A stretch of DNA of 63,948 bases, counting the filler, from Dimargaris cristalligena (taxonomy: Eukaryota): assembly GCA_003614675.1 (NCBI GenBank). It is 4 parts of 4 records of this genome, joined end to end, with 100 filler letters (N's around TTAATTAATTAA, not from the genome) between each part and the next. Parts side by side here need not be neighbours in the genome. Positions count along the whole stretch, not along the records: positions 16,575 to 33,044 come from ML002844.1; 3 more parts are not named here. The stretch is one strand, 5' to 3'. This document shows, piece after piece, positions 1-54,305 of this stretch. The position numbers and the translations under genes were made by a program. The notes under the pieces are model-generated. The model was given only the letters and a program-made list of their open reading frames with translations. It made no database searches and was not told the origin of the DNA. The first letter of the stretch is position 1. The number at the start of each line of letters is the position of its first letter.

Positions 1-329
1 GATAACTAAGTAGAGGGAAAGGGAGGGGAGTTCCCAGATAATAATATTAGTCATCACAAAGGATAGGTAATACTCGGGTAACCGATAAATTCAATATAAA
101 ATAATAGAAGGGAAAAAAGGAAAGGGAGAAGTCTATTTTTAGTTGTACTTTGAATAGGGGTGTAGTCCAGCCAGGGGCATTGTGAATGCAGGGGTACAGT
201 CCGGTCAGGTGCAGGGGTGCAGCTTAGTTAAGGGTATATAGGAAAATAAAATATACTAATAGAAAAAATATTATTACTAATAAAAATAGAGTAAAAATGA
301 CTATACTCATCAGGGGTGTACTTCTGATA

Positions 330-1675
330 AGTGTAAAAAATAGATAAAAAATAAAAGTAGGTAAAAATGTGGTAAGTTTACCACAGGAGGTATCCTAAAA
401 GGAGTACTACTAAGATTGATGTATAAGTCAATAGACTCACTAGGTCCTGGTAGTATCTGGAATACTCTGTTAGGAATTAAAAGAGTCTTCAGATAACCCC
501 TAGACTATGTAACAAGAAGACAGGGCTGGGACCTGGAAGGGTATTATATATAATAATACCATGGCTCTAAGTATAGTTATGGGAAAGGTAATATAATATA
601 ATAAGGCCTAATATAGTTGCAGCTGATTTAGTTGAATTAAGTCTAGTTAGTAGGTTTAATATCAATACTAAATCTTTAAAACAGTGGTCAGAACCTATCC
701 ATTTATTACTAGTACACACCTCCTCAATAATGCTGATGATTTGATTAGTCTTATAGTTAGGGACATAGTTATGTGAGGGGGTCCTGATTAGACTACATTT
801 TTAGTGAGCCTTGGCCTCAGGGGCACTGGATAATAAGTAGTGATACCACTGAGATACTGTAGTATACCATCCAACTATATTAGAGTAGTTCATATGATAC
901 CAGGAAAGGAGCCTTGGAGGAATTTGATTTGCTAATGTATTGAGGTAAATAGCCACATGCAGGGGCCATCTATACTTCAAAAAATAGATAGAGCCTGAAG
1001 AAGCTGGCTAATGAGTCTGGGCCCTTTTTCTGGGGCCAATTTGAGGGGGGGGATGGCTGCCACTATAATACCAACCCTTTATTTGTAAGGAGTATACTTT
1101 ATAAATTAGGGCATAGGGATGTCTTAAAGGCTAGTGTATAGATATCTATCTAAATCTAGAATTATATTTGAGGAGGGCTGGGAGCTGTACCCAAATCCCT
1201 ATAGTATAACTAATGCTGTTCTTAAAGTGGAAAGACACCAAGTAATTAATAACCAGCTGCTCACACCCACTTGGAAGTAGGTGAAATTTGCGGCCAGGTA
1301 CCTCTATCATAGATAACTCTACCACACTATCAAATAAGGACTTCATGGCCATGTCCATGTAGTTACTCCAGGTTATTAAATTCCAATATAGTTCTGTGAG
1401 GATAATATTGACCAAGGTTGAAAAAATTAGTATGTAGGAGGTGAATATTGGGTAAAGTGCCACTAAATTTGGCTCATAAGATGTTTGTTGGTTTGCACAG
1501 CCACTAGGATGGGTAGAATATTAGGGGGGGGTACAATATGAGGTACAAATAGCCATACCAAAGACCTACTGGATTTATAGTATGGACCCAAAGAGGGGGG
1601 AAGTAAAAAAATCCAACTTAAGACAGTATCCAGAGTCCCCAATGAAAAGACAACCATCCAGAATCAAGGCACCAT
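330..1675 (-). pseudogene. Decayed, CpG-depleted repeated sequence (pseudogene of a multicopy family, or TE relic)
   Basis: About one CpG in 241-1860 by eye. The minus strand gives protein-like frames broken by stops, starting ATG GTG CCT TGA TTC TGG ATG GTT GTC TTT (hydrophobic, signal-like). About 430-660 is similar to about 18110-18350 (ccatgg..ta.gt.t...tatgggaaag.taatat...ataaggcctaatat). Confidence 0.5.
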
Positions 1676-2275
1676 GTGATGGTGAATCTGACTGTGGTAG
1701 TCACTAACTAAACATCTTTAAAGTGGGAGGGAAACTAGGTGGGAATGAAGTAAAATATAAGAGGCTGACTAATATTTATGTGTTATGTTGATTATTTTGA
1801 TGTTTGTTGTTGGGGTTTCTGGTGAATGGGGGGCTAGGATATATTAATTATTTTTCCAGCCCTAATTCTCCCTTGATAATTGTTGCGGGTGGTCAATTGA
1901 AAGAGGTTAATGAACCACTAGTAGTCAAGAAATGCAGCCAGTCCATACCCCTCCACATCACTTGTGCCCGGGTGGATTTAACAGCCGGAATGAAATAATG
2001 TAGACAGCCTAGTCAACCCATTTTCAATGAATGCCAATGTTAAACTATAGACGGCCAGTAATAGGAGTGAAAGAAAGATGGAGAAAAATGGAGAAGATGT
2101 ACTGGACAGCTCAATCTCCAAATTGCCGGTGGTGTACCACCGGTACGGAGGTCTGTATTACTCTGGGGTAACTAAGTGGTATACTATGGCGCTTATATTC
2201 TCGATAGTTTTTCATACATTACGATAAAGCACTGTTGAATGGTGTTACCCTTAATATACCCCCCCCTCCTCCCCG

Positions 2276-10984: not shown

Positions 10985-13790
10985 TGTAAAATCCGACCCT
11001 CCCTCCCCTAACCCTCCGCCATTAGGTAAACTTGGAGCAATTAACCCTCTCATTAACATCGCCCCTCCCCTTCTTCTCTCGCTTATAGCCGCCTTCTTCT
11101 GCTACTCCATTTTATTTTGGTTGTTGTTTTTTTATTTTTACCTACACCACATTGCCGATAACTTGTATCGAAAGTTTTTTTTTTACTATTACTATATACG
11201 TTTTTACTGTTGCTTCATCATGTTGCGTTTGATTCCAAATAACGATTCATCATCACACTATCCGTGTTTCCCAGCTTTCCCCGTCTCTTAGTATTATTAT
11301 TACTATTACTATTATTTCCATTACCACCATTATTATTACTATTCCGCCACCACCTTCACCTTCCTACTAGGGAGGTCCTCTTTATTTCCCTGGCCCTCGA
11401 TATTCCAAGGTGGCGTCAAGAATGGTTGAGGGATATCCGTTCCTTCTCCCCCACCGTCCCCATCCTCCACCCAACCGGGAAGCCCTTGTGATCTACTTTC
11501 AGGACCGAATACTTAATAATCGCCACCTCCCACTCTCTTATTTCCGTGATAACCCACCGGGTATAGTGCAATGGCTCAAGTGTGAGGAAAGGGAGAGCAC
11601 CTGTGTAATCGATTACGCCCAAATAAAAATGCCGCCCTGCTGAGTGTGCCCCATTTACTCCTCCTGTTTTTTTTTTAAAAAAAAAATGTAAATAAAATGG
11701 CGAGTACCAGTGACTTACTTTGGCCAACAGGGCCCAATGCAATAGATCCGATTATTTTTGGCATAACATGGTTCCTGCGGGCTTTATAATAAGCCCGGAA
11801 GCGCTGGCACTAGCCTGTATTAGACTAGATTTGGATGGGGTTTGCCTGGTTTCTTTCGGGAGGAATTAGGCATAGTAGCCCTTTCTTTGAGGATAATTTC
11901 ACAGTGGTGGGGGTGTAGGAGATAATTGTGAGATTCCTCTCCAAAATATATACCCATCAGTGGGATGATTATATATTATATAATAAGGGTGGATGGGTGT
12001 TTTAAATTCCTAATTCTGGGTACAACTCCCCATCCCCAATCAGGTATTAAATTTTTTATCCTCTCCAAAAAAAATTAATTAACTGAGAGAAAGAGAACGA
12101 TATGTGAAAAAACCATAGCTAAGCATCCGACCGACCAATTGGTAATCTTAGTAGGCTCAGCTTGTTTCACGGCTGGGTACATAACAGAGGGCTGTCTGCT
12201 GCTTCTCTGATTAACCTACTTTCCTCTCCCTTATCCTTGTATAGTGTATCATTATTAATATTTATGTTATTCCGTCTAAATAACTCACATCCCTCTTTAG
12301 TAACGGTAAGTCTTCGGCATTCGCCTACGGATTCCTGGACCATTCGGCGCTTCAACTAATTTAACTGATGAGCAGTAGGGGTTATCTACTCACAATTTTC
12401 TGACACCTCTAAACTGAGTTTCGTGTGGAGTGAGGGGATTCACGGGGGATTCTCCTCTGCCCCTCCTTCGCCGGTGATCTGAAAACCTACTCTGAAATTC
12501 TTGAACAATTCCCTCTGTGTTTACAAGAGGGCGGTGGTCCATCTTTGGCCTTTAAACATATTTCTGAACCGCGCGATTCGCCTATTCATGATCAGTATGT
12601 CCAGTAACTAATCGTACTCCTTCGTAATCTCCGCCCCATGGTTTGTTACTTGAATCCACCTCATAGATTCTCCCGTGGCAGTCTCTTTCAGCTAGGAATA
12701 CAATCATTCAGTTTTATTCTAACATTGCCTTTTACCACGGTTGTGCTTTCGTAGGGTTGTAAATAGTCAATAAACACACTTCTACTTTTATTTCTAAAGA
12801 GTGCCTCCCCTGCTAATTTGATTGAAAATAATTTAGAGGCGTCCTGTCGGGGTAGTGAGTGGAATCCATTACTGGGGTTGGGTATTTGTGAACTGTATAC
12901 TTAGTTAAAGACCCTAGTGTTCAAGACCCAACGGAGGATCAAAGGGCAGTGTGAATTTTGCTGAGTGCTGGAAATTGACACAAGAATTACCAACCGTTTA
13001 AGGTCCTAAATAGTTCCACCAGAGGTGTACTACTTGTGTGCGAAGTAGCCTGTGACTTGAATAGAACGGAAATACCCCCCTCCCCCATTGTTATGTTTTA
13101 AGCATTTTGATTCACCCCAATGAAAAAGTCTTCTATGTAAGCATGACTCGCCTGGCTGGCCTTTCGTGGTTGTTGACCACATCCACTAACATACTGTTCC
13201 CGTCATTTCTCGGGTGGGTTGCTTACGCTCAGCATAATTATAAGGCGTTGAACGCGGCTGTAATAGGAACGCAGACTAGTTAATGTACTCTTGACCTATA
13301 GAGGTTGAGACCGTGCCAATAGGGTAGTTATGTCGAAGCCGAGCTGAATCTATTGATTCCATAGTGTTGTTTTGACAAAGGAGCGGTCAGTTGCATACCA
13401 TTATGAATGCAATGAAAAGGGAGAAGTAGCGTCAGCAAATACACAAGCTCCCCTATTTCCTAAAGTCCCCCTAAGGGGCGATAGACTATAGGGTACATAC
13501 AATTACTCAGCCCTCTGGTGTTACATTGGTGGACTTTGCTTACCTCTTTGGGGTACAGGCATTGCATCCGAATGAAACAAGGCCTGGTTACCGCTACTCT
13601 ATGTTCGTGTAGATTTACGGTGCTGGCCGAGACTAACCTGGCGGCAAAGATACACGGTGTCCTTTTATTATTCTGACATTAGTGAAGGATAGGGAGAGGG
13701 GGAGAGAGACAAAAAGGGCCAGTGCGCATTTTGGAGCTCGTGAACCATACGGCCGTCTAGGAAAATACCTGAAAAAGGAACACCTGCTCC

Positions 13791-13934
13791 ATGTGGGTGA
13801 TATTCGGCCCAGCTGAATGGGGATTTAAATGATAAGTGCACGAAAAAATGGGCGAGTGATTCATTTCTAGCCAGTAGTATTTTCCTCATCCAATGGATTT
13901 TTCGTTATACAGCCTGGTTGAACCTCTCCCATGT
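13791..13934. mobile_element. MITE-like element, most divergent copy (144 bp)
   Basis: Shares cctcatccaatggatttttc.ttatacagcctg and its termini with the copies at 37067-37210 and 54165-54305. Confidence 0.6.
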
Positions 13935-14282: not shown

Positions 14283-16234
14283 ATGTTGAATTCCCCCCTT
14301 TGGTTCGGTTTTCTGGCGGTCGGGGCCCATACCGTAGCCCATCCTACTGAAAGTCCGCCTCTCCCGAGTGGCCACCACCACCGACTGTGTATTTCGTCGA
14401 ACCAGGCGTCCAACGATCCACTTTCCTCTTGCTGGCGCAACTTACCCATTGAAATCAGCCAAAACATCATTTCCCAATTGGATGCCCCCAAGCAAATCGA
14501 TTTACTCAAAGATAACAGCCTTTGGCGGGCCAATCGGCGATTGTTGTTAGAGGAGGTAAGTTGTGGGCTAAAGGCATGTCTCTAGTAGTGCTAGATCCTA
14601 CTTAGGTAGGAGGTAGGGGGCTCCATATATATTCGCGGGATAAATTTAAACATGCCCTATATATCACTCATTGGGCAATACATTGGGGATATGCATATAT
14701 GCCTCGGCTGGTGATTCCCGGTTCCCTAAACTCACCAGCTGCATTCGCCTATTATATCATACATCAAACATAACACTCACACACCCCTACCTATATGGTT
14801 CCGTATAATAATTTCTATCACGGCACTATATAGATCATTGGGAAAACACACACTGCCTATTCGGACCAGAACCAATGGGATCAACTATCCACCACTTGGT
14901 TAGAACTAGCCCCTTTGGAAATCGTGGACAGTACCCTTTTCAAAATTGACGGCATGTCCCAGAAGACATACCCAGCGCAGCAACGCCTTTTCACGCAAGA
15001 AAACATCAACCTGTACTGCGAGCATTGGGGTGATTTCGAACAATTTGTAGTTGCCAACCGCCACCAACCGATCATTAGCCGCAATGCCCGCTACCCCCTG
15101 TTACTGGATACCTTATTAGCCACAGGCACATTTGCCCGGACGTTTCCCCTCGTAGCGGGCTTGGACGGCGCCACTTTGATCCAATTGTGGAAACTATACC
15201 AGGCTGGACGACAACAGCACTCGGGACCGCGTGAAACATTCACCTCCCCCCAACCGCCGTTGCCCCGGAGTTCGCGACGGCCCCTAGCAGCAGCAGCAGT
15301 CGTAGTAGCTACCACTATGGCCGCCACCACCACAACCGCCGCCCAGTTGACGTTACCCCTCGGGTCGCTGAACATCCACCGACTCAATCCTCCCCTCACA
15401 GTCCCGCAACTCCTACCCCATGTCATCCACCGCGTCAGCTATACGGCCCTCTGGTATTTTTATCAACAGGGCCACTTCGCCGATATTTACCGGTTTTTGG
15501 AGGGTAACACAGATCAGGTCCGCGACCCTAATCATCCCGTCGACTACATGTATTACGACCCCCGGCAACGTAATCGGGTGGCCATCTGGGCCCGCTTTTG
15601 CCTTACCTTGGCTTTTTTGAAAGATCAACCCGACCCAGAGACCGGAGGGGGGCCGTTCATCCAACGGCTCGTCCAAATCGTGGAACGCCACTACCGATTA
15701 ACGGCCCCCGGGTCGGTCGGTGCTGGTACCGGTACCGGGGTCGGGCCTAGATCCAAGTCCGAGACTGAGAGTGAGAGTGAGAGTGAGACCGATGCTGAAA
15801 TCGGGACTAGAGTCGGGAGTTTTGCCAGACGCCACCTTTCCCACTGGGTCTGTCTCCGATTCTGGAATTTCCACCAAGCCGCCGACCGCCTTTACGTGTT
15901 ATGGGGTTCCGTGGAATGGTTGTCAGCCCACCCCATTGTTCATCACGAAAATTGTCGCTGGCAGATTTTGGACCACCCCGCTCTGGCGTTCAATGGCCAG
16001 GGTCGCCTGGTACAGTTGGTACCCGAAACCCAGCTACAAGCAGCCAACGACGACCAACAACTGCCCCCCAAGGCCATGGAGATTCCCATGGGGTGGGTGG
16101 ATTATGACTATAAAACTAATCGGGCGTATCGAACCTTAATTCAGTGCCCCGCCGTTCAGGAACTGACGTACATGGAATGGGCTAGGGCAATGTTAATTAT
16201 GTTTTGGTTTCGCTTCTTACACCACATGGTGTAG
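14283..16234 (+). CDS. Putative secreted protein with an N-terminal F-box-like motif; exons 14283-14555 and 14834-16234; about 557 aa
   Basis: Signal-like N-terminus MLNSPLWFGFLAVGAHTVA|HP. WRNLPIEISQNIISQLD..Q..L....LW fits the F-box consensus. GAG|GTAAGT donor and TAG|ATC acceptor are in phase with the 439-aa ORF. Confidence 0.75.
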
Positions 16235-16423: not shown

Positions 16424-16474
16424 CTCCGAAACGGGGAATTGAACCCCGACCGTCACGGTGAGAGCGTGAAATCC
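16424..16474 (-). tRNA. tRNA-Glu(CTC), 5' part cut off by the contig end
   Basis: Reverse complement reads GGATT TCACG-CT-CTC-AC-CGTGA CGGT CGGGG-TTCAATT-CCCCG TTTCGGAG: anticodon arm, T arm and 3' acceptor strand, followed by a T6 Pol III terminator at 16413-16418. Confidence 0.93.
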
Positions 16475-16574
16475 NNNNNNNNNNNNNNNNNNNNNNNNNN
16501 NNNNNNNNNNNNNNNNNNTTAATTAATTAANNNNNNNNNNNNNNNNNNNNNNNNNNNNNNNNNNNNNNNNNNNN
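16475..16574. other. Artificial contig linker (44N-TTAATTAATTAA-44N)
   Basis: Six-frame stop linker inside N runs, identical at three places. Confidence 0.97.
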
Positions 16575-16850
16575 TTTATTATCTATCTTTTCAAATAAAG
16601 TTCAGTTTTCAAGGATTTGATTTCAGTTCTTTACAGGTCACATCAACAGTAACATCCATTGGTATGACTTGGTGATAAGGGAAACAGCAGTAAACCCCTC
16701 GGCTATAAATATGGCATGGGCCACCCTCTCTTCAACTATCAATTACCCATTCACAGTTTATTGATCTGACAATTACATGCTTCCCCCCCTCCACAACCAC
16801 CGATTTCTTCAACCCACTCCCACTGCCCAATTTTAACCAATTTTCCGACC

Positions 16851-17075
16851 ATAAAGTTCCAGTCCACCGCTGCCCTCACCCTCATTTTTATTCTGGCTAC
16901 TGTCACTCAGACCCACCCACTGGCCCCTGTCGCAGTCCATTCACCTCAACTAGCCAAGTGTGGATTCCACTCTTTTGCTGCAAAGGTGGGTGGTGGTTAT
17001 GTTGGTTACAAAGTAACCAGAGTTGTAATTGACAAGCTCCAAGGGAATAAGAATAAGAATACTAATACAATTTAA
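16851..17075 (+). pseudogene. Small secreted-peptide precursor relic (start codon apparently ATG>ATA)
   Basis: TATAAA at about 16703, a C/T-rich leader, then acc-ATA opening a 74-codon frame: (I)KFQSTAALTLIFILATVTQT|HPLAPVAVHSPQLAKC GFHSFAAKVGGGYVGYKVTRVVIDKLQGNKNKNTNTI*. Confidence 0.65.
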
Positions 17076-17769
17076 TCCAGTGGCAATTGTTCGACTTACC
17101 CTGTCTGGTTGATGGCAGTACATTTCCAACATTGTGTCAATCTCAATTAAATATTTAAAATACCATACTATCACTGACACACCTTGAATACTTTTATATT
17201 GCTTGGTGTTGTCAATAAGGGATTTTTTGCCTCAGAATCTACCTGCTTCTTTTATTTATTATATAAAAAATATATACCAGCTAATCATCTTGGCCTGCTA
17301 GCCCTTTACCCAACTTAAATGTTTTATATTTCAATTTCCTTAAAATATCTGAGGTTTTCTCACCCTACTCTTTTGAATCTTAGTAAGTTCAATAAGGCCC
17401 CCCAATGAAACTCAGTAAATTTAAATATTGTAATAGTACCTTGGATATATAGTATTGGGATGCTTGATATTGGAAATGCTAACAATATACCAATACACTT
17501 TCATAAAAGGGAAGAAGGCAGCTAGAAGATGGCAAGTGCCTCTATGTTGTTAGTTTTATTAAATAGCATAGTCAGCAGGGGTATCATATGTGGTAAGAAT
17601 GAAAGGATAAAGGATAAGTAAATAAACTATTGTAATTGTTCAGAAACTGACAAGAACAATAGACCCACTGGGACCTATTTTTCAACAGAAGGAATTCTTA
17701 AATATTATTTAATAACAGTATGGGTCATATGAGGTACAAGACAGTACCTTTTACATATTTTGTCTAAAG

Positions 17770-18360
17770 GTATTACCTAAGTTCACCACTATTAGTTCAT
17801 CAAGAGTACTGAGGGTAGGCTTCTAATGGTAGGTGGAGCTTAGGCTTAGTTAAACATTTCACTAGTATTAGGTATAGGTATAATACTAACTAATAAAGGC
17901 TAGAGGTAGGTAAATGCAAGGGATATACAGTAGATACACTTACTAGTAAGTATAAGGGGGTGAGTATATATAGGGTTTATTGGATAAATGAGGGGTAAGA
18001 ATAAGCTGAGGGTTCTAACTAGTCCCAATGGGGCCCAGTTATATATATATGGGGATAGCTCCAGAGGGAGGTCCCAAGGAAAGGATACTACCAAGACTAA
18101 GGTATAGCTAGATGGGCTAACTGGATAGTCACCAGTATCCAGAAGTCTCTAATGGTAACTAGAAGAGTCTATAGATTAGTACTTGAGTAATTAGTATAAT
18201 AAGGTGGAGTCCAGAAGAGGAAGGGTTATATGATAAGTAATGATCCCATGGTACTAGGTGTGACTATGGGAAAGCTAATATGGTGCTATAAGGCCTAATA
18301 TGGTCAGATATCTAAGTTGGCCAGATTAAGGTGGACTAGATGGTCCAATAAGCATAATAT
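17770..18360 (-). repeat. Second copy of the CpG-free degenerate repeat
   Basis: 17775-17933 matches 32885-33044, and about 18110-18350 matches about 430-660. Differences are mostly transitions. Confidence 0.75.
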
Positions 18361-19902
18361 TGTATTATAAAATAAATTATTTCAGAATATAAACTTTAAT
18401 AATTATATGATAATTATTTTTCTTTTATAAGATCTCAGTATATTCCATATGTAAATTTGAATACTATAGAAATCCCAATTATTTTACATATAGATAATAA
18501 AAGGATTACAAGTGTTAATACTGCATATCTATTGGGCCATGGTTAAGCCATTACTGGTTCTTCCCAATTATAAACTATGGAGAATCCTAAGTGAAGTATT
18601 TGGCCACTGGTTGAGGCTGTCACCAGTAATAATTTAAGTGTTTTAGTGAATGCATGTCAATACTTTTTTGAAGAAATATTACTGGTATTAATGTAATTTT
18701 GGATGTAAATTATATACTCAATGTATATGTTATTATAAATGTCTAGTGAAGTATATAGCCATTTCCAATGCCTGTTAGATTTTATTATGAGAAAAAGACA
18801 TGTACTTTTTAATCCAGGCAGCCTACACTGGTACTGACCATGAGATTGTTGATTGGAGGCCATAGTTTGATCATGGATCAAGTATAATTGAATTTACCAT
18901 TTATATATCCAGGTTTTATTAGCTAGAGGAAAAACATTTAACACTAAAGGTAATATAGTAAATATTTAAAATATATTTGTTGAGTGTAAAATCATAATAG
19001 ATAAGAACCTAACTGGCTTTTGGGGGCGAGTTAATGTATCATGCTAAATGATGGAGTAAAAAGTAGCATGACTAAAGTTGGAACTGCTGTACTGGCTTCC
19101 TAGAAAAATGATAATGAATACCAGCAGTGAGATATTCCACAGACTCTGCTTTATATATGCAGCCATGATGTCTTTATCATTATTATTGACAATTGCAGTA
19201 TGAATTAGATTAGTAGTATTTTCTAACCCTGTACTATCTTAAATTTGGTGTCTGTTGTCCTGTATTGACCATGAGATTATCTCATAAACCTCCCTATAAA
19301 TGCATGTGTCAACTGCCTCTAGTTTTTGCCAACATTTAAATATATAGGTATTTAAAAACTACATGGTGAATATGGACCCACACTGATAAATGCCACCTAA
19401 TAAACAATTATTGGGTAGTGGGGACTGTTGTTTGGCCTTCGTCTGCCTTTGACAGCTTGGCAAAAGGATCATAGGGGACATAGTCTCTCCCTATAGTATA
19501 GTTGGGGCTACTAATTGCACCCCAAATTAGAAAAATATATTGTTTGATACTCAGCATCACTGCAGAGTGAAGCTGGTATGTACTAATGAATGTGGTTGGG
19601 CAAAGGAATTAATAGAAAGGCACTTGGATAAACCACTGTGATGTCAGGGGCAAATGAGAGTGGTATATGTTAGGACAAGAACAAGTAGAGAGCTGTGGAG
19701 GAGAGAGTATAATACAATGAATATGCATATTAAACAAACAAGTGGTGTGTATGGTTTTAATTACAGCTTGTGCTATGTGTTCAATAGTGGGGGGAACAGG
19801 TGTCTTATGTATATAATGGTTTTCTGATGTGCTGCCGTGGGCAGCTAGGCTGAGGCCGCATAAGCATTGACACTGATCACCAATCCAAGAAGTAACCATG
19901 CT

Positions 19903-21343
19903 ATGGATGAGTTTGAGGTCCCCGGATATTTAATAAGTTCATTCTATGTGAACGGCCTGGGTCCAGAAATGTTTTTTTTATATGAGCTGATTATCCTTTT
20001 CTTCAGCTTTCTAATTTATTATTTTATTTTTATTTCCATTAACTATTGACGAAGTTATAGGCCATTGAAAATGATGGTGATTTTAACCCATGACGATTAG
20101 TATTATGATGGGCTATAAGTAAGACCAGGTACCACAAGATGGACAGGAGTTTGAAGGATGGAAAATAGGTTTATTAAACTAGATATCAAAAAGGGAAAAC
20201 AAAAGAGGAGTTGCAAACTAAAGAGCAAGCTGTGGGGGAATAGTTGGGGTTATATCTAAACTCAAGGGGTAGGAGAAGAATGACGACAACTAATAAATAC
20301 AAATCAGTAACTAGGTAATATGGGGAATAAAACACAGTAGGATAATGGGTATATATTCTGATAATATTAAATATTAATTTTACCCATTTGTTAGTATGGG
20401 TTTTTTTACTTATATGGCTGGTTATTCTTGTAGCTCAAATTAACTAGTTATAACAATTAGTTGCTTCATATTTCTACTTGTATTATTTTTGATTATCCTA
20501 TTATGAGCGGTGGCCTGGGAATAACTACCCATCCAGTGGGTTCCTTCTTGGAATTACACCATATAACCTTTTAGCATGAATTATTTATATCAGTTATATT
20601 AATATCCGACATGAAGAAGGCTTGGGAAGACCACACCTTTACAGGTCTTCCAACCTTCCAATTATCCATTATTCACTTCCATTTACATATCCATGACCGT
20701 AGCTTAGTTATTAAGTCAGTTTTTTCCCTATTGCAGGTTTTTATGACCTAAAATCATCATAGTTATCATTAGGTATAGTCATTTAGTTTAGTCAAATTAG
20801 TATATATATTCCAGCAGCGTCCCCCCGTTTTTAGGGATAAGTTATTTTTGAGATAAGTTTTTATTATTCAGAATAAATATCTAGTTTTAACTTCACTAGT
20901 ATTAACTGACGACCCCGACGATTTCTTTATAACAGTTCTATTTTATTATTTCTGCTCTTATTCCTTTTATTTGTTCTATTTCTCCATTCGATTTTGGTAT
21001 CTCTAGTACCAAATTTTTAATACCTATTTTTTTATCATCTGACAATGCGACGACACGCGAGACGACGGCGTACGACACAATGGAAGAAACATCCATCAGC
21101 AACTTCCCGAAAGCCACCTCGGTCTCAACCCCCTCGAAACCGATCAAGCCCAACACTCCGCACTACATGACCAAGTATGGCAAACCGTCCAGTGAAAGCA
21201 AACCGGAGACTCCTCCATCTGCTGACACTCCCAAGGGCGAGCCAGCGGAGCCCCTCAAAACTTTGGCATTACACATACATTCGCCATTAATGGGCGCTTA
21301 CTCCTTATTATTAGATAAGCACATCGATGAAAATGGCCTATAA
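19903..21343 (+). pseudogene. Possible decayed multi-pass membrane protein gene
   Basis: ATG at 19903, a hydrophobic segment, then NY*RSYRPLKMM (TGA possibly from CGA). An apparent last exon after CAG at 20935 reads FYFIISALIPFICSISPFDFGISSTKFLIPIFL and runs into the S/P/K-rich 21080-21343 ORF. The middle region has many stops. Confidence 0.3.
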
Positions 21344-21766
21344 ACCATACATTAACCGTTCAACAATACGTATGTATTTAAATCCATGTGTTTATTTTCA
21401 AATCAGCAAACACCAAAAATAAAAATAAGAGCAGGCTGGAATGGCCAAGTAAAGGGTTCTAATATAGCATAGATAAAAATGAAAAACAGACCGGACAGGT
21501 GTGAAATAAGCATGGGTTGCCTATATTTAATAGGACAATAGGGCCCCGCACTAGTGAACCCAGGGCAACGAAATGATATTGAGAAAATGAGCCGCTGTTC
21601 ATGGTGAAAATAAATGATACATTTAGCCATACCGGCCGGAATGCAAATAATAAAGAAGAATAGTGGAGAGGGAAGCACGGAAAAGCACTCGATTGGGGCA
21701 ATCGGCGCCCACATAGAAATATGTATCTACGAAACAAAAACGGTGGTACTGATATGAAATCAAAAT

Positions 21767-24275
21767 CTACTCCTGAGGTCGCTCGCCCGAGGAAGTGCTT
21801 TTTTTGGACTTGTTTCGATTTTCCTCGTCGCGCTAATTCGGGGAGTTTGTGAGGCAGCATTAGATCACGAAACGTGCGTTTCAGTTAGTCGGGACTTTTA
21901 ATAGCACAATACACTCAAATAGGGGGTGCCCATTATATCGAGCTAGAAAATGAGCATAATATGCCGTTTCACCGAATCGGCGACTCCCAATGCGACTTAC
22001 CTGTTCTTGGGCCAATTCGTCTTCGATCAGGTCTTCCTGTTGTTCCAAAACGGCCAGCTTCTGTTTGTTGGTGGCCTTGCCGTGAGCTTCGGAAACCTTC
22101 AGTTCCGCCTCGCTCAACTATGTATAGAACATATAGGAAGTTGCCATAAATGAGGAATATGGATATGTGCACATCCGAAATATAGATACATGCATGATTG
22201 GTCAACCCAGCGTATAGCGTGCCCCACTATAGACATTCGGCATTATATGCTCTTTTTAGGGTCTGCTATGATTAGCCAAAGCCACAGTACAGTTTCAATG
22301 GGACTATAAAACTTACCAGGTTATCGGGCAGCGACGACAAAGTGGCTTGAAGCACGTCGGGAGAAAGAGTAGCCGACTCGCTGCTAGAAATAGCAAAGGC
22401 CCGCATCAAAATCAGGATAGTCATGGGGACCTTGTGGTTCAAGTGCAGATCGAGCCATTGTTTCAACTCGCTACGTAATCGGGCGGGTGATACCCCAAGG
22501 GCCCGCATGCCGCGGCTCGAACAGGCCGTTTGGAGTTCGGGAATCGTCATGGTATCCACTCCTTCCGAGTTGATCATGCGGTCGTCGGCCCGGATGAATT
22601 TCATCTGGCTTCGAATGCGGTTCCGCAGCATATTATCCAAACCGTAGATCCCCAAGTTCATGTACCGGCAAATGCTAACCAGTTGTGGGCGGGACAGATT
22701 TTCCAGGGTGAAATCCTCCTCGAAGGTGCGGGCCACTTTGAGCAGATCTTCGGTTGCGGCAAGCTCACCGGTCGAACGGATCTGGTGATGAGGATATTCA
22801 GGTACACCAATTTGGTATGTTGGTAATAGTGAGTTAAAGACCATGTCAGTAACAAGGGTGCTTGACAGGGTAACAGTGGGAAAACGATACACCGTATATA
22901 CGGTGCGCTCCGAAAGACAGCAGCATCTCTATTGATATTCTCGTTTGCATTGGGCAAAAGCCAAACCAGTAGGTCATTGGATGGAATGGCATATCCTGGG
23001 GTGAACCGCCTTACCTTATGGAAAAGTTCGACTAATTCGTCGACTTCATTCTCGGCAGGCGTGCGGGCCTTGGCACTTTCGGCCATCGTTTCTCGCAAAA
23101 ATTTGCTCACTTCCATGCGCACTTTCAAAAGCTTGCGACGATTGTCCTCTTGGGTCTTTTTGGTCTGAAAGGTGCTGGGAAGCATATTGGGGAAGAGCCA
23201 CAAGGCAACGGGCAGCAGCAGTTCCATGAAGGGTACGATGATGAAGAAACTGAACGGGATGAGCCGAAGCAAGTCCTTGGACGTACGGCTCAGCTGTAGG
23301 TGGGCAGCATCGGGATAAGAGAGACGATGTCGATTAGTCAGGGGTTTGCAGGTAATGCATACGACATGTAGAAAAAGTGCAGGGCTTTGAACTAACCGCA
23401 TATGTAGAGGATGGGCATAAAGCGGGCAAATTTCCGACGCTCAGCACAGGCCTATGCTTTAAAGTGGCTCGTCGTATTCTTTTACCGGTTAGGCACTTAC
23501 CTGACGCTGTTCACGGCGGGTCAGAGTGTTGCCTTTGATCATGCGGGCGACCAGCTTGGTGGAAATGCGGGTTTCCAGAGCCAAGAGTTTAGTGCCATCC
23601 CACAGGTGGTGGAGTTCATCCTTGATGCGTTGCATGATGGGTTTCTTAGCCGTGGGAGGCACCACGGTCGGCTTAGGAGGGGAAGTGACGGGAACCACCG
23701 GGGCCGACACAATTTTGGAGAGGTCTTCACCGGAGGAGGTTGGCTTCGAAGACGCATCGGTGGTTGGGGTTGGGTTGGCAGTGGGCGTTTGGCTCGCGGC
23801 GGAGGTATCCTTGGCAAAGACAATCGGTCTGGGATCGAGGCGATTCGGGGACGGGGTTGAGGTGGCCTCGGTGGAGCGCTGCTGATCGGCCCGTGGGGTG
23901 GAGTAGGCGAATGAGCGAATCAGAACCTGGGGCGGGACCACCCAAATGCCAACGGGTGGGTATCTGGTGTGGACAAAGGTGAGACCAGCAGCTACAAGAC
24001 GGGGTTCCGCCACAGCAAAAGCCCGTAATAATAATAATAATAAAGAAGCGGGGGTATGGGAATGGGTCAAAATTTACCAGAAACGGCTGTTGTTAATGTC
24101 AGGACAATGAGACGCAGGAAAATCTGTTAAAGACTCGAGTCGGACACCTTCAGCAGTATCAGGGTGGCGTTAAATAAAAAAATTACTCACGTTGGACGCG
24201 GCTGAAGGGGCGGAGACCGACGGACGAGGCACGACCCATAAGGGACCCACTAAGGGCTTTCGATAAAACGGGCAT
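21767..24275 (-). CDS. MDM38: LETM1/Mdm38 mitochondrial inner-membrane protein; exons 24275-24191, 23991-23501, 23293-23015, 22781-22317, 22117-22001, 21832-21767; about 500 aa
   Basis: LETM1 motifs ELHHLWDGTKLL, LTRREQRQL.RT..DLLRLIPFSFFIIVPFMELLLPVAL.LFPNMLPSTF, LENLSRPQL, DDRMI..EGV, ELQTACSSRGM, LKQWLDL. All introns are GT..AG with consistent phases. Confidence 0.95.
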
Positions 24276-32108: not shown

Positions 32109-32884
32109 GAACACCCACACTGCTCCTTGCAGTGGTCTAACCCTAAACTGCAGGCATCTCAGGCCAAACGGTCGCCTAATCCAATAATTGCCCCCAAGAC
32201 ATCCGATGAGCTGGCACCAATATATGATGATTGACAAGTGGTTCAATCTGATGAGTATGGATCTAATAAGCCAATTTCTGCTGGAAGCTTAGTGCATTTT
32301 TTTGGAATACCCTGCTTTTTTCTGAGGGTTGGGCGTAGCCCACTCAATTATTATGTTACGTAATTTAATTATCCCATTTATTTATTCACAGAGTAGGTGC
32401 CGACTAGTTTGATAGTGATATTTACCTGTTTTTTAAAATAAATTCATAAGCTCAATAACTAAACGTTACTCGTAATATAAAGGGTATTCAGGGAGGGGTT
32501 GAGTATGAGGAGCACAGTCAGCTAATTTGATGTAAGTCAAGCAGTACAGTCATCCGACAAAGCATTCAGCATGTGTAATTTATACAAGTGAAGATAATCC
32601 ACCATTACTTAGTTTAACAATTAGGACAACCACTATCCTGAAGTATGCCTATTTAGATTGTTTCAAGTGGTTTTTTTCTCAGAGCTGCTATCATTTGTAT
32701 ATTTTTGCATTGTATATAACATCTCCCATTGATCATCCCTGCATATTACCCTACATTTGGCATATCTTTATTTTAACTATTTAATCCCAACCTTAAAAAT
32801 ATTAATATTATATACCCTAATGATAAAGAGTCCACTCTAATTAATCTGCTGTCATTGTTTTTTACATTCTACTTTTATTTATGG

Positions 32885-33044
32885 CACCTGGGTTAACCAC
32901 TCTTAGTCTGTCAAGAGTCCTGAGGATAGGCTTCTAATGGTAGGCAGGGCTTAGACTTAGCTAAGTAAGCTACTAGTGCCAGGTACAGGCATAGTACTAA
33001 CTAATAAAGGCTAAGTACAGGTATAGGTAAGGGATATGCAGCAG
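32885..33044 (-). repeat. Third copy of the degenerate repeat, running into the contig end
   Basis: caagagt.ctgagg.taggcttctaatggtagg...tactaactaataaaggcta is shared with 17800-17900. Confidence 0.8.
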
Positions 33045-33144
33045 NNNNNNNNNNNNNNNNNNNNNNNNNNNNNNNNNNNNNNNNNNNNTTAATTAATTAA
33101 NNNNNNNNNNNNNNNNNNNNNNNNNNNNNNNNNNNNNNNNNNNN
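33045..33144. other. Artificial contig linker
   Basis: 44N-TTAATTAATTAA-44N. Confidence 0.97.
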
Positions 33145-37066: not shown

Positions 37067-37210
37067 ATATGGGAGAAGTTCATTCAGGCTGTATAATGAA
37101 AAATCCATTGGATGAGGCCAATATTACTGGTTAAAAGCTATTCTCACATATATTCACCCATACATGTATCATATAAGACCTTAAACAGCTGGTTTGAATT
37201 TCACCCATAT
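37067..37210. mobile_element. MITE-like element (144 bp) with imperfect 25-bp terminal inverted repeats
   Basis: Left end ATATGGGAGAAGTTCATTCAGGCTG versus reverse complement of the right end ATATGGGTGAAATTCAAACCAGCTG (19/25). Near-identical inverted copy at 54165-54305. Confidence 0.75.
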
Positions 37211-37417
37211 GCATTGTGGTTTAAAAGGTAATAATTTAATCGCAGTGGAGGGATTGATATAGCAAGACCGCCGTAATGAATTGGTACAAGTTAATATAAT
37301 AGGGTTAACAGCAATTTCACTGTCAACTAATAATAATAATAATATATATATATATATATATGTATCGTATACAGGTGCCCAACCCGGGCGGTGCTATAGT
37401 CTAGATATACCCGCGTT

Positions 37418-44800: not shown

Positions 44801-47800
44801 CTGTTCTTTCTCATTGGTGACCACCATTGGGGGTCTGGCTTTGGAAGGCTTCCGGTATATTTTTGTAAGCCAAACCTACCTATGAGATATAAAAATAAGC
44901 AATTTAGAGAGCAAGGGAACGCAAGAGGAGGTATGCATGTGGGAATATATTTCGTGGATTTGTCCAGAGTCTGAAATTTCCGATAAGGGTTCATTCCAAA
45001 GGGCGGTTCTCTGTTGGCAGGGCTTAATTAAATTAGTCGACAAGATTTCCGGGAGTTGCGAGTGCAGCGGTATATCGTATGTGATTTGCATTGCGGAAGA
45101 CTCGCCAGTTTAATAAAAGCGACGCTGATGGGAACATGCCAAGTCATTATATTGCATCATCCCGGTTATAAATGGTTCCGAATGTACGACCCTAGTAATT
45201 CCACGAAGCATCCCCTCGCGCCTCATTTTTTGAACAGCTGGGATTACTGGATCCGTCCAGTGAATTGGAACCGGCTTGATTCACTGCCATAATTTGCGAT
45301 AAAAAGACGAATATTAGGGATCACCGCGCCACAGTAGGTTCCTTGATAGGTAAATTGAGGGGTCTGGAGGCTCAAGCTAGCCCGCCCAAGTAGAAAGGCC
45401 CTAGGTTCCTATTATGGATCTAAACGGTTCCAATGACTGACTAGACCAAGCTGCTTATTTACGCGAGACTTGGTTGCTTAGTCAACATCATCCTGTCCTC
45501 TAAGGCATCTCAAAGCCACAAAGAACTAGTTGTCTTATGATTTAGTGGGAATCTGAATCTCCATCAGCTGTTCCATGTTGGTAAATAGAGCGTTAGGTGG
45601 TCGGGCATTTGGAACAGTCGTTGCAGATGCCACCACTACAAACCTTTTTTTCACCCGCCCCATTTTCATACAACTCCCCAACCACAACGCCTTTGCCGGG
45701 TAAAGGCCATTCGCCCAACCCGCCATGTAAGCCTGATCCGATTACATAATAGATGATCCCAAGTGCCATAATTATAATAGCTATTCAAGGAGAGGTGCCC
45801 ATGCCTGCCATATCCCCATTTTTAATAAAGCAAATATCCAGCGCCACTTTCCGTGCCCTCTGTCCTTTTTCATCCGTCCTTCTCGGGCGTCTAAACAAAT
45901 AAGATCAGCCCGAGGAACCGATGTTCAATTCACTATCCCCATTAGCGCGACCCTTATACCGGCTATCCCGTTTTCCCCCGAGCCGAAATCCGTCGCCAGC
46001 AACACCCGTTTAATTATGCCTAATGAAGCCCGAATTCCAATCCCAACTAGTTCAACAAAGAGCCGTAGGCGAGAATAGAATAAATTGCCCAAGGTAGCAT
46101 TCGCAACTAACCGTTCGTCTCTATCCACGTACATGTAGACCCGCCTTAAAGCACTAGAACATTAAACCGGTTAGCGATAAGAGTACGATATATTCAACAA
46201 AGACGAGTCAGCCGACCCGTGGAACCCCCCTTGCTGTTTTGCTACATGATATTGTTCACTTCCCTCCTAGTCACACTATTCCCCACGCGTTGATTAGAGG
46301 GGGATATATCATATTACGGTAGCCCACCTTCTTTTGGTAACCTATAGGATTGGTAAAAAGTGAAAGTACCCAGGTCTCGAGTGGAATGGTGGGAACCGCA
46401 ACAGAAAAAAACGGCTATGTTTCATTATGTTCGTAAAAACATTAGAGCTCACATGGTCTCTCTGCGGTGGCCCCGTAAACGTAATCACCATGCTGATCGT
46501 CGCTAGGGCCATCTATACCCCAAAATGCTAGGATGGAAAAAGAACCGCGTCCAATCCAATGTACAGGGGGCATATGGCCTAGAGTCCGGGGAAAGGAGTT
46601 TAGGGAGTACCCCCATTAAATCAACCCATTACAGGGCGACAACGACGGGGAAGCCACTCTTTATGGGGTGTTTCCACTCGGCTGGGCATTGGACATCCCC
46701 TAAAACGCCGCTAATTATATTAGCCAGGCCTCCGTAATGCCAGGGTCCCCTTACCAGCCCGTATGTCAATAATAGAACGGTGGACATTTATGTAAAAGAG
46801 TTTCAGCCCAAGGGAAAATCCTGAATAAGGATATGGGCCGTGATGCCTACTGGGGCAGTGCAGACCCAAGCGAGGAATGGGGGTAGTGGTGGTGGTAAGT
46901 GACGAAGACATACCGCTCTTCACCGGAAGATGAGTTGGTGGCCGGCGTTGTGTATAATCAATAACATGGGCGCACCACAGAGAATCCCTTGGTTCGCCCT
47001 CCGCCTTCTCTTTGGTAAAAGGGTCAGAGCCATTACACCGGTTGTCTCGAGAACGCCGCTTTGCTGACCCGCTTAGTATCCATGAAGCCCTCCTCCCCCC
47101 AGTCCGCTTCAAACCCCCGTCTGTATTGTAGGGGAGTGGCTTTTAACAAGAAGGCAGTATTCCGATTAAAGCAATCGCGGTCGGCCCACTGGACCTCGAA
47201 TATACAGCATTATTGCGGCAGTTCTGACGAATGGGCAGTACGAGGCCAGATCATCATCCACTCCCCAATTAGGTATGGAATCCATCACGTGACTGGATAT
47301 CTGGGTGGATAAAAAAAGGCGAGTTTTTTGGAGAGTGGAGAAGCTTGGGAGTGTTGAAGCGGCAGAAGAGATTCCATTAATGTGGCTCGGCTCATTTTTT
47401 TCTTTCTAATTTTAATAGTCGTTATTGATGGATGCAACTAATATACCGTATATTAGGATCAATTAGCCACCGTAAAAAATACGGCCCAGACGACTAGGAA
47501 AAAAGGCCGAGCTGGATTCTCTGTAAGTAACCTGCCGCAACGCTTGGCTTCGTTCGCTCTTCGTTTGCCCTTTCGTCCACATTCTTTGACTCTTATTTGT
47601 TCTGGACTTGCGGGACACTCCGTCGTTCGTAGACTTTCTTATTTACTCAAAGCCTGGATTCTCCCCGTGCCTCGGCAGCGGTTGAACTCTTCCCAGCCGT
47701 CAATCGCGTTAGCGCGCTCCATCTAACTATAGTTCAGAGCGGCTTCTTCTGTGGTATCCTTTCTATTTTCTACCGATTCAAGTCCAGTTGAATCCCGTAC

Positions 47801-47831
47801 GACCAGCTATCTAGCCCGCCTTTTTTTCCCA

Positions 47832-49614: not shown

Positions 49615-49714
49615 NNNNNNNNNNNNNNNNNNNNNNNNNNNNNNNNNNNNNNNNNNNNTTAATTAATTAANNNNNNNNNNNNNNNNNNNNNNNNNNNNNN
49701 NNNNNNNNNNNNNN
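49615..49714. other. Artificial contig linker
   Basis: 44N-TTAATTAATTAA-44N. Confidence 0.97.
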
Positions 49715-54164: not shown

Positions 54165-54305
54165 ATATGGGTGAAAATCAAACCAGCTGTTTAAGGTTTT
54201 ACATAATACATGTATGGGTGAATATATGTGAGAATAGTTTTTAACCAGTAATATTGGCCTCATCCAATGGATTTTTCATTATACAGCCTGAATGAACTCC
54301 CATAT
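54165..54305. mobile_element. MITE-like element (141 bp), inverted relative to 37067-37210
   Basis: Its reverse complement matches 37067-37210 apart from a few substitutions and a 3-nt indel. Confidence 0.75.

What the first reader, a model, noticed from the sequence alone, without database searches (positions are those of the whole stretch)
17095..19840. Kilobase CpG-free tracts with CpA>TpA differences between repeat copies: RIP-like or methylation-driven decay
Seen: by eye there is no CpG from about 17100 to 19020, about one in 241-1860 and none in about 32560-33044, while genes are CpG-rich. These tracts hold copies of one repeat. Aligning 32912-33044 with 17801-17933 gives mostly transitions, several at CpA (agtgccagg/agtattagg, gtacagg/gtatagg, ggcatag/ggtataa). 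The minus-strand frame is full of TAG stops. Known: RIP (CpA>TpA) is characterised in Dikarya, and 5mC deamination removes CpG. Inference: a repeat-targeted C>T mutator or heavy methylation acts in what looks like a non-Dikarya fungus and reaches neighbouring genes.
Basis: partly seen in the sequence, partly recalled or inferred. Interest (0 to 1): 0.7.

Follow-up and report, generated by a model that had tools for sequence, protein, structure and literature searches.

The report
CpG-free repeat island in Dimargaris
A 2.7-kb stretch of non-coding DNA around a very abundant short repeat in the early-diverging fungus Dimargaris has lost almost every CpG, which is the usual scar of long-term cytosine methylation rather than clear evidence of a new RIP-like mutator.

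Summary
The CpG-free tracts are real and far beyond chance. From 17092 to 19027 there are 1935 bases with no CpG, against 50 expected, while 46 GpC are present. The longest CpG-free run in 1000 block shuffles was 419 bases.

The window is from Dimargaris cristalligena or a very close relative, in Zoopagomycota.

Only about 0.66 kb of the tract (17749-18411) is a repeat. It is a non-coding dispersed element with hundreds of copies. The other ~2 kb is single-copy in contigs of four DNA runs, yet equally CpG-free.

The single-copy flanks show CpG loss with TpG/CpA gain, the signature of 5mC deamination. The repeat core also has a TpA excess and a TpG/CpA deficit, which is RIP-like composition.

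The two in-window copies differ mostly by transitions (32:10). The CpA bias of those differences is weak under a fair null and also appears in a control.

- **Best reading (0.6):** a methylated repeat island, with CpG methylation spreading into unique flanks.
- **A true RIP-like mutator:** about 0.2.
- **Decay reaching genes:** no evidence.
- **Verdict:** a new member of a known kind, of moderate interest.

The parts
17092..19836 (.). CpG-free or CpG-poor AT-rich non-coding tract. It holds 4 CpG in all, at 17092, 19027, 19440 and 19836.
   Evidence: CpG positions and gaps; shuffles; 0 Pfam families in six frames.
17749..18411 (+). Core repeat 'R1'. It is a non-coding dispersed element of about 0.66 kb with hundreds of copies. 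It has no CpG, TpA o/e about 1.5-1.7, TpG/CpA about 0.7 and GC skew +0.35.
   Evidence: summed contig depth is 18,000-112,000 against about 60-150 for single-copy bins, and 1685-2378 contig pieces per run were laid on the 5-kb stretch. Searches (composition; no tandem structure; alignments).
17092..17743 (.). Left flank, essentially single-copy, CpG-free.
   Evidence: 1 CpG against 17.4 expected, 17 GpC; depth is near single-copy apart from an 87%-identical second copy of 16904-17252 and short matches at 17410-17576.
18412..19836 (.). Right flank, single-copy, CpG-free, with a TpG/CpA excess.
   Evidence: 2 CpG against 39.5 expected, 45 GpC; depth in bins 18412-19747 (all but 19080-19246, which is somewhat higher) equals that of the one contig covering them. 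TpG o/e 1.16-1.48.
16636..16933 (.). Edge segment with a 97%-identical variant contig (a paralogue or the other haplotype) that still carries CpGs.
   Evidence: There are 9 differences in 298 b. All 7 listed have A/T in the window and G/C in the other contig. Five are at a CpG of the other contig and 2 at CpA.
202..1886 (.). Second CpG-free tract, with one CpG at 1291. Bases 1-750 have core-like composition, 421-711 aligns weakly with R1, and 1000-1886 is flank-like.
32555..33044 (.). Third CpG-free tract. 32860-33044 is the start of an R1 copy, cut off by the linker at 33045.
20082..20916 (.). Moderately repeated AT-rich segment next to the tract, only partly CpG-depleted (o/e about 0.3-0.5).
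   Evidence: depth 2,000-19,000.

Best explanation
The tract is a small heterochromatin-type island centred on one copy of a very abundant, non-coding ~0.66-kb dispersed repeat. The repeat attracts cytosine methylation at CpG, most likely by a DNMT1/UHRF1-type maintenance system. The mark covers 0.65 kb of unique DNA on the left and 1.4 kb on the right. Over evolutionary time, deamination of 5-methylcytosine has turned practically every CpG into TpG or CpA. The repeat family has in addition lost C before A, which gives TpA excess and TpG/CpA deficit. That could come from non-CpG methylation inside repeats, from a separate repeat-directed process, or from the element's own history.

Shown here: the CpG extinction, its extent over single-copy DNA, the reciprocal TpG/CpA gain in the flanks, the repeat's copy number, and the taxon.

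Inferred: that methylation is the cause, and which enzyme does it.
For: 1. The depletion is CpG-specific and GpC is normal. There are 0 CpG against 50.3 expected and 46 GpC in 17092-19027. Mean GpC o/e is 0.92 in CpG-poor windows against 0.94 elsewhere.
2. It is not a matter of composition. AT-rich control windows keep CpG o/e 0.92 (n=34). The CpG-free run is 1935 b against a maximum of 419 in 1000 shuffles.
3. The single-copy flanks have 3 CpG against 57 expected. Their TG/CA o/e is 1.19 against 0.97 in controls (Mann-Whitney p=0.004), and TpA is not raised (p=0.13). This is the product pattern of CpG>TpG/CpA.
4. The tract is centred on a repeat with hundreds of copies. All 20 of the 247 500-b windows with CpG o/e <0.25 lie in the three repeat-bearing tracts.
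5. There is polarity at the tract's edge. All 7 listed differences (of 9) to a 97% variant contig are window A/T against other G/C, and 5 are at CpG.
6. Relatives have the machinery. A published table lists DNMT1, UHRF1, a class II zf-4CXXC protein and HELLS for the Kickxellomycotina Coemansia reversa and Linderina pennispora. DNMT5 and DNMT4 are 'ND' for both. 5mC is marked 'Y' for Linderina (supplement of PMC10538959).
Against: 1. No methylation data and no DNMT search were possible for this organism. No genome is held.
2. The repeat core shows a TG/CA deficit (0.75), not an excess, and a TpA excess (1.47). CpG-only deamination does not predict this.
3. [quoted passage not shown]
4. One short piece with repeat-level depth, 21084-21250, is CpG-rich, so copy number alone does not predict depletion.
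5. The 'single-copy' flanks could be old repeat copies that have diverged below the 80% threshold used.
Confidence: 0.6

Rival explanations
1. A RIP-like mutator triggered by duplication acts in this Zoopagomycota fungus. It makes C>T changes at C before a purine (CpG and CpA). It degrades the R1 family and leaks into neighbouring unique DNA.
For: - The core windows have the four highest composite RIP indices of 247 windows: 0.98, 0.75, 0.73 and 0.68. The next highest is 0.55.
- In the core, TpA o/e is 1.47-1.68 and TG/CA is 0.73-0.75.
- Transitions to transversions are 32:10 between the two copies, against 476:383 in the Argonaute duplicate (p=0.01).
- C is variable in 18 of 25 CpA contexts, against 14 of 56 CpC or CpT contexts.
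- By eye, the window copy differs from the 30-base loose-end consensus of 26-39 contigs per run. That consensus lies just before 17861. Within its first 24 aligned bases the changes are almost only G:C>A:T, and two are at CpA.
- A composite-index signal has been reported for another Zoopagomycota species, Zoophthora radicans, with caveats (PMC11105155, passages).
Against: - With pyrimidine sites as the null, the CpA/TpA bias is weak (p=0.037 in one pair, not significant in the other). It also appears in a non-repeat control (p=0.027).
- The flanks show TG/CA gain, not loss, so they do not look like RIP leakage.
- The 3.6-kb tandem Argonaute duplicate (72% identical) keeps CpG o/e 0.88-0.98 and shows no CpA asymmetry (56 against 51).
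- The composite index exceeds 0.2 in 21 windows that have normal CpG, so it is unspecific here.
- Badet & Croll list this species as 'no_rip'. Their AT-rich 4-mer enrichment in repeats is only 1.17-1.47 (supplements).
- DNMT4/RID is 'ND' in the two Kickxellomycotina relatives tabulated.
- Mutation polarity could not be measured across many copies.
Confidence: 0.2
2. The whole 2.7-kb tract is one old composite mobile element or piece of foreign DNA. Its CpG-free, AT-rich composition was inherited, not acquired in place.
For: - The visible parts of other R1 copies (loose-end consensus strings) are also essentially CpG-free, so the family may have spread after losing CpG.
- 10-base direct repeats at 17749 and 18482 flank the core.
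- 96% of this species' annotated repeats are of unknown class: 2.11 of 2.19 Mb.
Against: - The flanks are single-copy at 80% identity or more in four runs of two studies.
- Flank and core differ in composition (TG/CA 1.19 against 0.75), so they are not one homogeneous element.
- The edge segment 16636-16933 lost CpGs relative to a 97% variant, which shows decay in place.
- Three separate tracts show the same core-plus-flank pattern.
Confidence: 0.1
3. CpG is lost without methylation. Possible causes are selection against CpG in silent chromatin or a local AT-biased mutation or repair regime.
For: - The tracts are AT-rich (GC 0.28-0.40).
- A Nature Genetics 2025 survey notes CpG depletion in some eukaryotes with very low 5mCG (PMC12695648, passage).
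Against: - GpC is untouched, and equally AT-rich control windows keep CpG.
- General AT bias does not remove one dinucleotide completely while raising its deamination products.
Confidence: 0.07

Closest known systems
CpG erosion of 5mC-methylated transposon-rich regions in fungi with DNMT1 and/or DNMT5, as in Basidiomycota such as Cryptococcus (review PMC13297926, passages; bioRxiv 10.1101/149385, search listing and abstract only)
   Same: The loss is CpG-specific and confined to repeat-bearing, gene-free DNA. TpG/CpA rises in the flanks. Genes are spared.
   Different: The host is a Dimargaritales mycoparasite (Zoopagomycota). Methylation has not been measured there. Relatives are listed with DNMT1+UHRF1 but no DNMT5. 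The extinction is total over about 2 kb of single-copy DNA. The repeat core also carries a TpA excess.
Repeat-induced point mutation (RIP) of Neurospora and other Pezizomycotina (RID/DIM-2 dependent, CpA>TpA; as described in PMC12543289 section 9)
   Same: The DNA is AT-rich and TpA-rich with few CpA. Transitions dominate the divergence of a repeated sequence. The composite RIP index is positive in the core.
   Different: - CpG, not CpA, is the dinucleotide wiped out.
- Unique flanks show the CpG>TpG pattern.
- A long tandem duplicate is spared.
- The context bias of copy differences is weak.
- The species scored 'no_rip' in the published screen.
- A RID-class enzyme is not listed in relatives.
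Composite-RIP-index signal in Zoophthora radicans (Entomophthorales, Zoopagomycota), eLife 2024 (PMC11105155, passages)
   Same: Same phylum, and an index-based hint of RIP outside Dikarya.
   Different: That report rests on the index alone, and its authors state major caveats. In this window the same index is positive in many ordinary CpG-normal windows, so it is not diagnostic.
TpCpG hypermutation of transposons in Pucciniomycotina
   Same: C>T at CpG in repeats of a fungus without canonical RIP.
   Different: No preference for a 5' T is visible. The 5' neighbours of variable C are A 10, T 5, C 6 and G 11. The CpG sites themselves are gone, so the test is weak.

Membership tests
5mC-deamination CpG erosion of methylated repeats | CpG depleted while GpC and overall composition do not predict it | tested here: met
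   0 CpG against 50.3 expected and 46 GpC. Shuffles and AT-rich controls agree.
5mC-deamination CpG erosion of methylated repeats | Reciprocal excess of TpG/CpA | tested here: inconclusive
   Met in the single-copy flanks (1.19 against 0.97, p=0.004). Not met in the repeat core (0.75).
5mC-deamination CpG erosion of methylated repeats | Association with repeats and sparing of genes | tested here: met
   All 20 CpG-poor windows lie in the three repeat-bearing tracts. Gene windows have o/e 0.8-1.1.
5mC-deamination CpG erosion of methylated repeats | A CpG methyltransferase (DNMT1, DNMT5 or Dim-2) encoded by the organism | not testable with these tools
Relatives are listed with DNMT1+UHRF1.
5mC-deamination CpG erosion of methylated repeats | 5mC actually present on the tracts | not testable with these tools
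   Only contigs of DNA runs were available. There are no methylation calls.
Canonical RIP | Acts on duplicated DNA and spares unique DNA, apart from short leakage | tested here: not met
   About 2 kb of the 2.7 kb is single-copy and equally CpG-free. The 3.6-kb tandem Argonaute duplicate is not depleted. At 72% identity that duplicate may lie below any recognition threshold.
Canonical RIP | C>T with CpA preference, giving high TpA/ApT and low (CpA+TpG)/(ApC+GpT) | tested here: inconclusive
   The composition criterion is met in the core (product index 1.65, substrate index 0.66, composite 0.98). The context bias among copy differences is weak and is shared by a control. Polarity is known for only a handful of sites.
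Canonical RIP | RID/DNMT4-class methyltransferase present | not testable with these tools
   No genome is held. DNMT4 is 'ND' for Coemansia and Linderina in the published table.
Canonical RIP | Genome-wide enrichment of AT-rich k-mers in repeats (criterion of Badet & Croll 2025) | tested here: not met
   Taken from their supplement, not recomputed here. RIP_status is 'no_rip' and the TE enrichment of eight AT-rich 4-mers is 1.17-1.47, below their 2-fold cut.
Pucciniomycotina-type TpCpG hypermutation | 5' T preference of the mutated C | tested here: not met
   The 5' neighbours of variable C in the R1 pair are A 10, T 5, C 6 and G 11, against A 20, C 14, T 6 and G 8 for conserved C. The sample is small.

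The most novel reading that the evidence does not exclude
A Zoopagomycota lineage may run a repeat-directed C>T hypermutation process aimed at C before purines (CpG and CpA). Its relatives show no RID/DNMT4-class enzyme. The process might work through DNMT1/UHRF1 or through an unrelated deaminase. It would have degraded a family of hundreds of ~0.66-kb repeats, and CpG methylation would then spread from the relics into unique DNA. That would be a RIP analogue outside Dikarya, missed by k-mer screens because the repeats are short.
Probability: 0.15. Interest if true: 0.75.

Novelty: new member of a known kind. Interest (0 to 1): 0.4.

Why it matters
Reviews describe early-diverging fungi as having very little 5mC and as being dominated by 6mA. 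A tract in which every one of about 50 expected CpGs is gone, including in 2 kb of unique DNA beside a repeat, suggests otherwise for this lineage. It implies that cytosine methylation has been dense, long-lived and able to spread around repeats in a Dimargaritales mycoparasite. That gives a cheap sequence-only proxy for mapping silent chromatin in a fungus that is hard to culture. It also gives a concrete prediction for methylome sequencing.

The RIP-like composition of the repeat core is the only part that could widen the known range of RIP-type genome defence. The present evidence for that is weak.

Tried and rejected
- **DNMT search by protein.** I ran no further search on a bacterial methyltransferase seed. 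Success looked unlikely, and a negative result would be uninformative.
- **Pfam.** Six-frame translations, with X at stops, of 16900-20100 and 1-2100 gave 0 families in 12 sequences. Six ORFs from 16709 to 22117 also gave 0 families.
- **More repeat copies.** An 18-base conserved word was scanned in metagenome contigs. It gave one 1.7-kb locus, L001, which matches only those 18 bases and has normal CpG, so it is a chance hit.
- **Earlier findings of the scan.** Three look-ups returned nothing.
- **RNA.** No RNA holder is listed for the tract.
- **Literature.** Bewick et al. 2019 (PMC6533610) is not held. A search for 'Kickxellomycotina' plus 'DNMT1' found 0 papers. Of 13 papers holding 'Dimargaris cristalligena' and 'methylation', 11 were listed. 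By title and start of abstract, and by the passages read in one (PMC10386755), none concerns its DNA methylation.
- **Composite RIP index as a detector.** It exceeds 0.2 in 25 of 247 windows, and 21 of those have normal CpG. I rejected it as unspecific here.
- **First context test.** The C-bearing copy's context gave OR 7.7 (p=1.5e-4), and pooled OR 6.0 (p=4e-7). I downgraded this result. It partly restates the TpA-rich composition, and the stricter test is only marginal.
- **Tandem structure of the core.** None was found.
- **Junction frames.** Translating across the linker junctions to decide whether the four pieces are contiguous was inconclusive.
Full report
**Source and taxon.** The window is four pieces joined by N44-TTAATTAATTAA-N44 linkers at 16475-16574, 33045-33144 and 49615-49714. 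Whether the pieces are contiguous could not be settled. No whole genome is held.

The genes are eukaryotic and fungal in type. They include a P450-reductase fusion, an APC3/TPR protein, a LETM1 protein and two tandem Argonautes. The first Argonaute's best named relatives are Dimargaris cristalligena proteins (69% and 63%), followed by Tieghemiomyces and D. xerosporica. The second Argonaute is 98% identical (449 of 456) to D. cristalligena H4R33_001934. So the window is D. cristalligena or a very close relative: Zoopagomycota, Kickxellomycotina, Dimargaritales.

**The observation.**
- No CpG lies between 17092 and 19027. That is 1935 b at GC 0.327, with 50.3 CpG expected from base composition and 46 GpC present.
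- After that there are only 19027, 19440 and 19836.
- One CpG (1291) lies between 202 and 1886.
- None lies from 32555 to the linker.

The longest CpG-free run in 1000 shuffles that preserve composition in 250-b blocks averaged 222 b and never exceeded 419 b. The longest GpC-free run in the real sequence is 303 b.

Of 247 windows of 500 b, 20 have CpG o/e below 0.25, and all 20 lie in 1-2000, 16751-20000 or 32501-33000. AT-richness is not the cause. Thirty-four AT-rich control windows of 250 b (GC<0.42) have mean CpG o/e 0.92. Gene windows have 0.8-1.1.

**What the tract is made of.** No frame of 16900-20100 or 1-2100 matches any Pfam family. Neither do the ORFs up to 22117. There is no tandem structure.

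Inside the window, only two stretches of the tract are repeated. 17749-17933 aligns with 32860-33044 (139 of 189 columns identical). 18102-18405 aligns weakly with 421-711 (190 of 311).

I laid the contigs of four public DNA runs (two studies, at least 80% likeness) on 16575-21574. This gave 1685-2378 pieces per run. Summed depth was 18,000-112,000 over 17744-18411, against about 60-150 where a single contig covers the stretch. So about 17749-18411 is one copy of a dispersed repeat, here called R1, present in hundreds of copies. Other contigs carry variable internal deletions and inversions.

The rest of the tract is different. 18412-19747 (apart from one bin, 19080-19246, with slightly more) has exactly the depth of the one contig covering it. 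17092-17743 is nearly so, apart from an 87% second copy of 16904-17252 and short matches at 17410-17576. About 2 kb of the 2.7-kb tract is therefore single-copy at this threshold.

A published annotation agrees with short unclassified repeats. It gives the species 7.1% repeats, 2.11 of 2.19 Mb of them 'Unknown'. It records 23,236 repeat hits of at least 100 b at 80-95% identity, but only 109 of at least 1 kb (supplements of PMC12543289).

**Two compositional layers.** I classed 250-b windows into three groups.

| Class | n | CpG o/e | TG/CA o/e | TpA o/e |
|---|---|---|---|---|
| Repeat cores (1-760, 17740-18420, 32860-33044) | 5 | 0.08 | 0.75 | 1.47 |
| Single-copy flanks | 9 | 0.04 | 1.19 | 1.10 |
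| AT-rich controls | 34 | 0.92 | 0.97 | 1.00 |

The flank TG/CA excess is significant (Mann-Whitney p=0.004) and the flank TpA is not (p=0.13). The core TpA excess (p=4e-4) and the core TG/CA deficit (p=9e-4) are both significant. The two flanks of this tract hold 3 CpG against 57 expected, with 62 GpC.

The flanks therefore carry the classical product pattern of 5-methylcytosine deamination (CpG>TpG/CpA). The core carries a composition that the Neurospora RIP indices score as positive: product index 1.65, substrate index 0.66, composite 0.98. The four highest composite values of the window are all in cores. That index is also above 0.2 in 21 windows with normal CpG, so it is not diagnostic in this genome.

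**Differences between copies.** The two R1 copies differ by 32 transitions and 10 transversions. The 3.6-kb tandem Argonaute duplicate, used as a control, differs by 476 and 383 (Fisher p=0.01).

In 18 of the 32 transitions the C-bearing copy has CpA, whereas only 7 of 49 conserved C/G are in CpA (p=1.5e-4). The control shows no such effect (107 of 475 against 338 of 1303). This test partly restates the scarcity of CpA and the abundance of TpA.

A stricter test classes all pyrimidine sites by their 3' neighbour.
- In the first R1 pair, YpA sites are variable in 14 of 58 cases against 8 of 77 for the rest (p=0.037).
- In the second pair the figures are 15 of 71 against 13 of 83 (not significant).
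- The non-coding part of the Argonaute duplication shows a similar bias (34 of 149 against 54 of 375, p=0.027).

There is no preference for the 5' neighbour. A CpA-specific mutation bias is not demonstrated by these two pairs.

**Polarity.** Two small pieces of evidence give direction.

The first is at the tract's left edge. A contig 97% identical to 16636-16933 differs at 9 places. It is either a paralogue or the other haplotype; a review notes that the species may be non-haploid (PMC10386755, passage). At all 7 places listed by the tool, the window has A/T where the contig has G/C. Five are at a CpG of the contig and two at CpA. That shows decay in place, mainly at CpG.

The second is a 30-base consensus of what 26-39 contigs per run carry just before 17861, with agreement 0.82-0.83. 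Read by eye against the window, it is more GC-rich. Within its first 24 aligned bases it differs almost only by G:C>A:T in the window copy, and two of those changes are at CpA. Both samples are tiny. The tool did not show the remaining 722 variant rows.

**Does duplication as such trigger decay, and does decay reach genes?** The tandem Argonaute duplicate (72% identical over 3.6 kb) keeps CpG o/e 0.98 and 0.88. The second copy is somewhat more AT-rich. Its transition asymmetry of 271 against 205 (p=0.003) is concentrated at CpG (84 against 46) and CpC (77 against 50), not at CpA (56 against 51). The second copy carries one in-frame TAA where the first has CAA. This is mild decay, not RIP-like devastation.

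A short piece with about 20-fold depth (21084-21250) is CpG-rich. CpG density returns to normal from about 20900. I find no evidence that the depletion enters a recognisable gene.

**Literature.**
- Badet & Croll 2025 (abstract, section 9 and supplements read) found repeat-enriched RIP-like signatures only in Ascomycota. They list this species as 'no_rip', with AT-rich 4-mer enrichment in repeats of 1.17-1.47. Their screen looks for enriched k-mers and would not register CpG loss.
- The eLife 2024 Entomophthora paper (passages) reports a positive composite index in 24.2% of the Zoophthora radicans genome, and its authors give explicit caveats.
- The source data of Funabiki et al. 2023 list DNMT1, UHRF1, a class II zf-4CXXC protein and HELLS for Coemansia reversa and Linderina pennispora. 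DNMT5 and DNMT4 are 'ND' for both. 5mC is marked 'Y' for Linderina, citing PMID 28481340.
- My searches found no paper on cytosine methylation or CpG-depleted repeats in Dimargaris. Bewick et al. 2019 could not be read and may bear on this.

**Verdict.** The best-supported reading (0.6) is a repeat-centred island of CpG methylation whose mutational scar covers the repeat and 0.65-1.4 kb of unique DNA on each side. A DNMT1/UHRF1-type system is the likely enzyme by analogy with relatives. This is inferred, not tested.

A genuine RIP-like process (about 0.2) is not excluded, because the repeat core has a real TpA-rich, CpA-poor composition and transition-dominated divergence. The fair context test, the flank pattern, the spared tandem duplicate and the published screen all weigh against it.

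An inherited composition (about 0.1) or a cause unrelated to methylation (about 0.07) is less likely.

The finding is a clean, well-delimited example of a known kind of genome scar in a lineage where it has not been described. It is of moderate interest, and the tests listed under next steps are straightforward.

Noticed in passing
16475-16574, 33045-33144, 49615-49714: Three identical N44-TTAATTAATTAA-N44 linkers lie exactly 16570 b apart, so the window is four pieces. The first linker cuts a tRNA gene: 16424-16474 on the minus strand matches Rfam tRNA positions 21-71, E=4e-4. Whether the pieces are contiguous is unknown.
   Followed up: partly
16575-16635: The first ~60 bases after the linker lie in a bin with summed contig depth of about 200,000-230,000 in all four runs, against about 60-150 for single-copy DNA. 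Contigs of the window's own locus stop aligning at 16636 although they run on for kilobases. Other contigs join this point to various places of the R1 repeat. It may be the end of another very abundant element.
   Followed up: no
55722-58319 and 60305-62806: There is a tandem Argonaute duplication. The first copy is an intact 866-codon frame. The second has an in-frame TAA at 61160-61162 where the first has CAA (Gln). The second is more AT-rich (GC 0.472 against 0.503), with excess loss at CpG (84 against 46). The annotated D. cristalligena protein starts downstream of the stop.
   Followed up: partly
13790-13932, 37069-37211 (-), 54165-54298: This is a short (~140 b) repeat family. Two copies are 96% complementary to each other and lie inside CpG-free gaps of 216 and 263 b. 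The third copy is more diverged and keeps CpGs.
   Followed up: partly
21084-21250: This bin has about 20-fold depth in all four runs, yet it is CpG-rich (9 CpG). It lies in an ORF with no Pfam match. It is a counter-example to 'every repeated piece is CpG-depleted'.
   Followed up: no
17749-17758 and 18482-18491: The same 10-base word (TTTTACATAT) lies at the start of the R1 core and about 70 b beyond its end. Its first 8 bases also start the R1 copy at 32860. It may be an element terminus or a target-site duplication.
   Followed up: no
17749-18411: CTA, which reads as TAG on the minus strand, occurs 25 times against 8.1 expected. G exceeds C by a skew of +0.35 on the plus strand. The R1-like parts of the other two tracts show the same strand bias.
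   Followed up: partly
14834-16231 and 47733-49614: Two long GC-rich open frames (466 and 627 codons) have no Pfam family.
   Followed up: no
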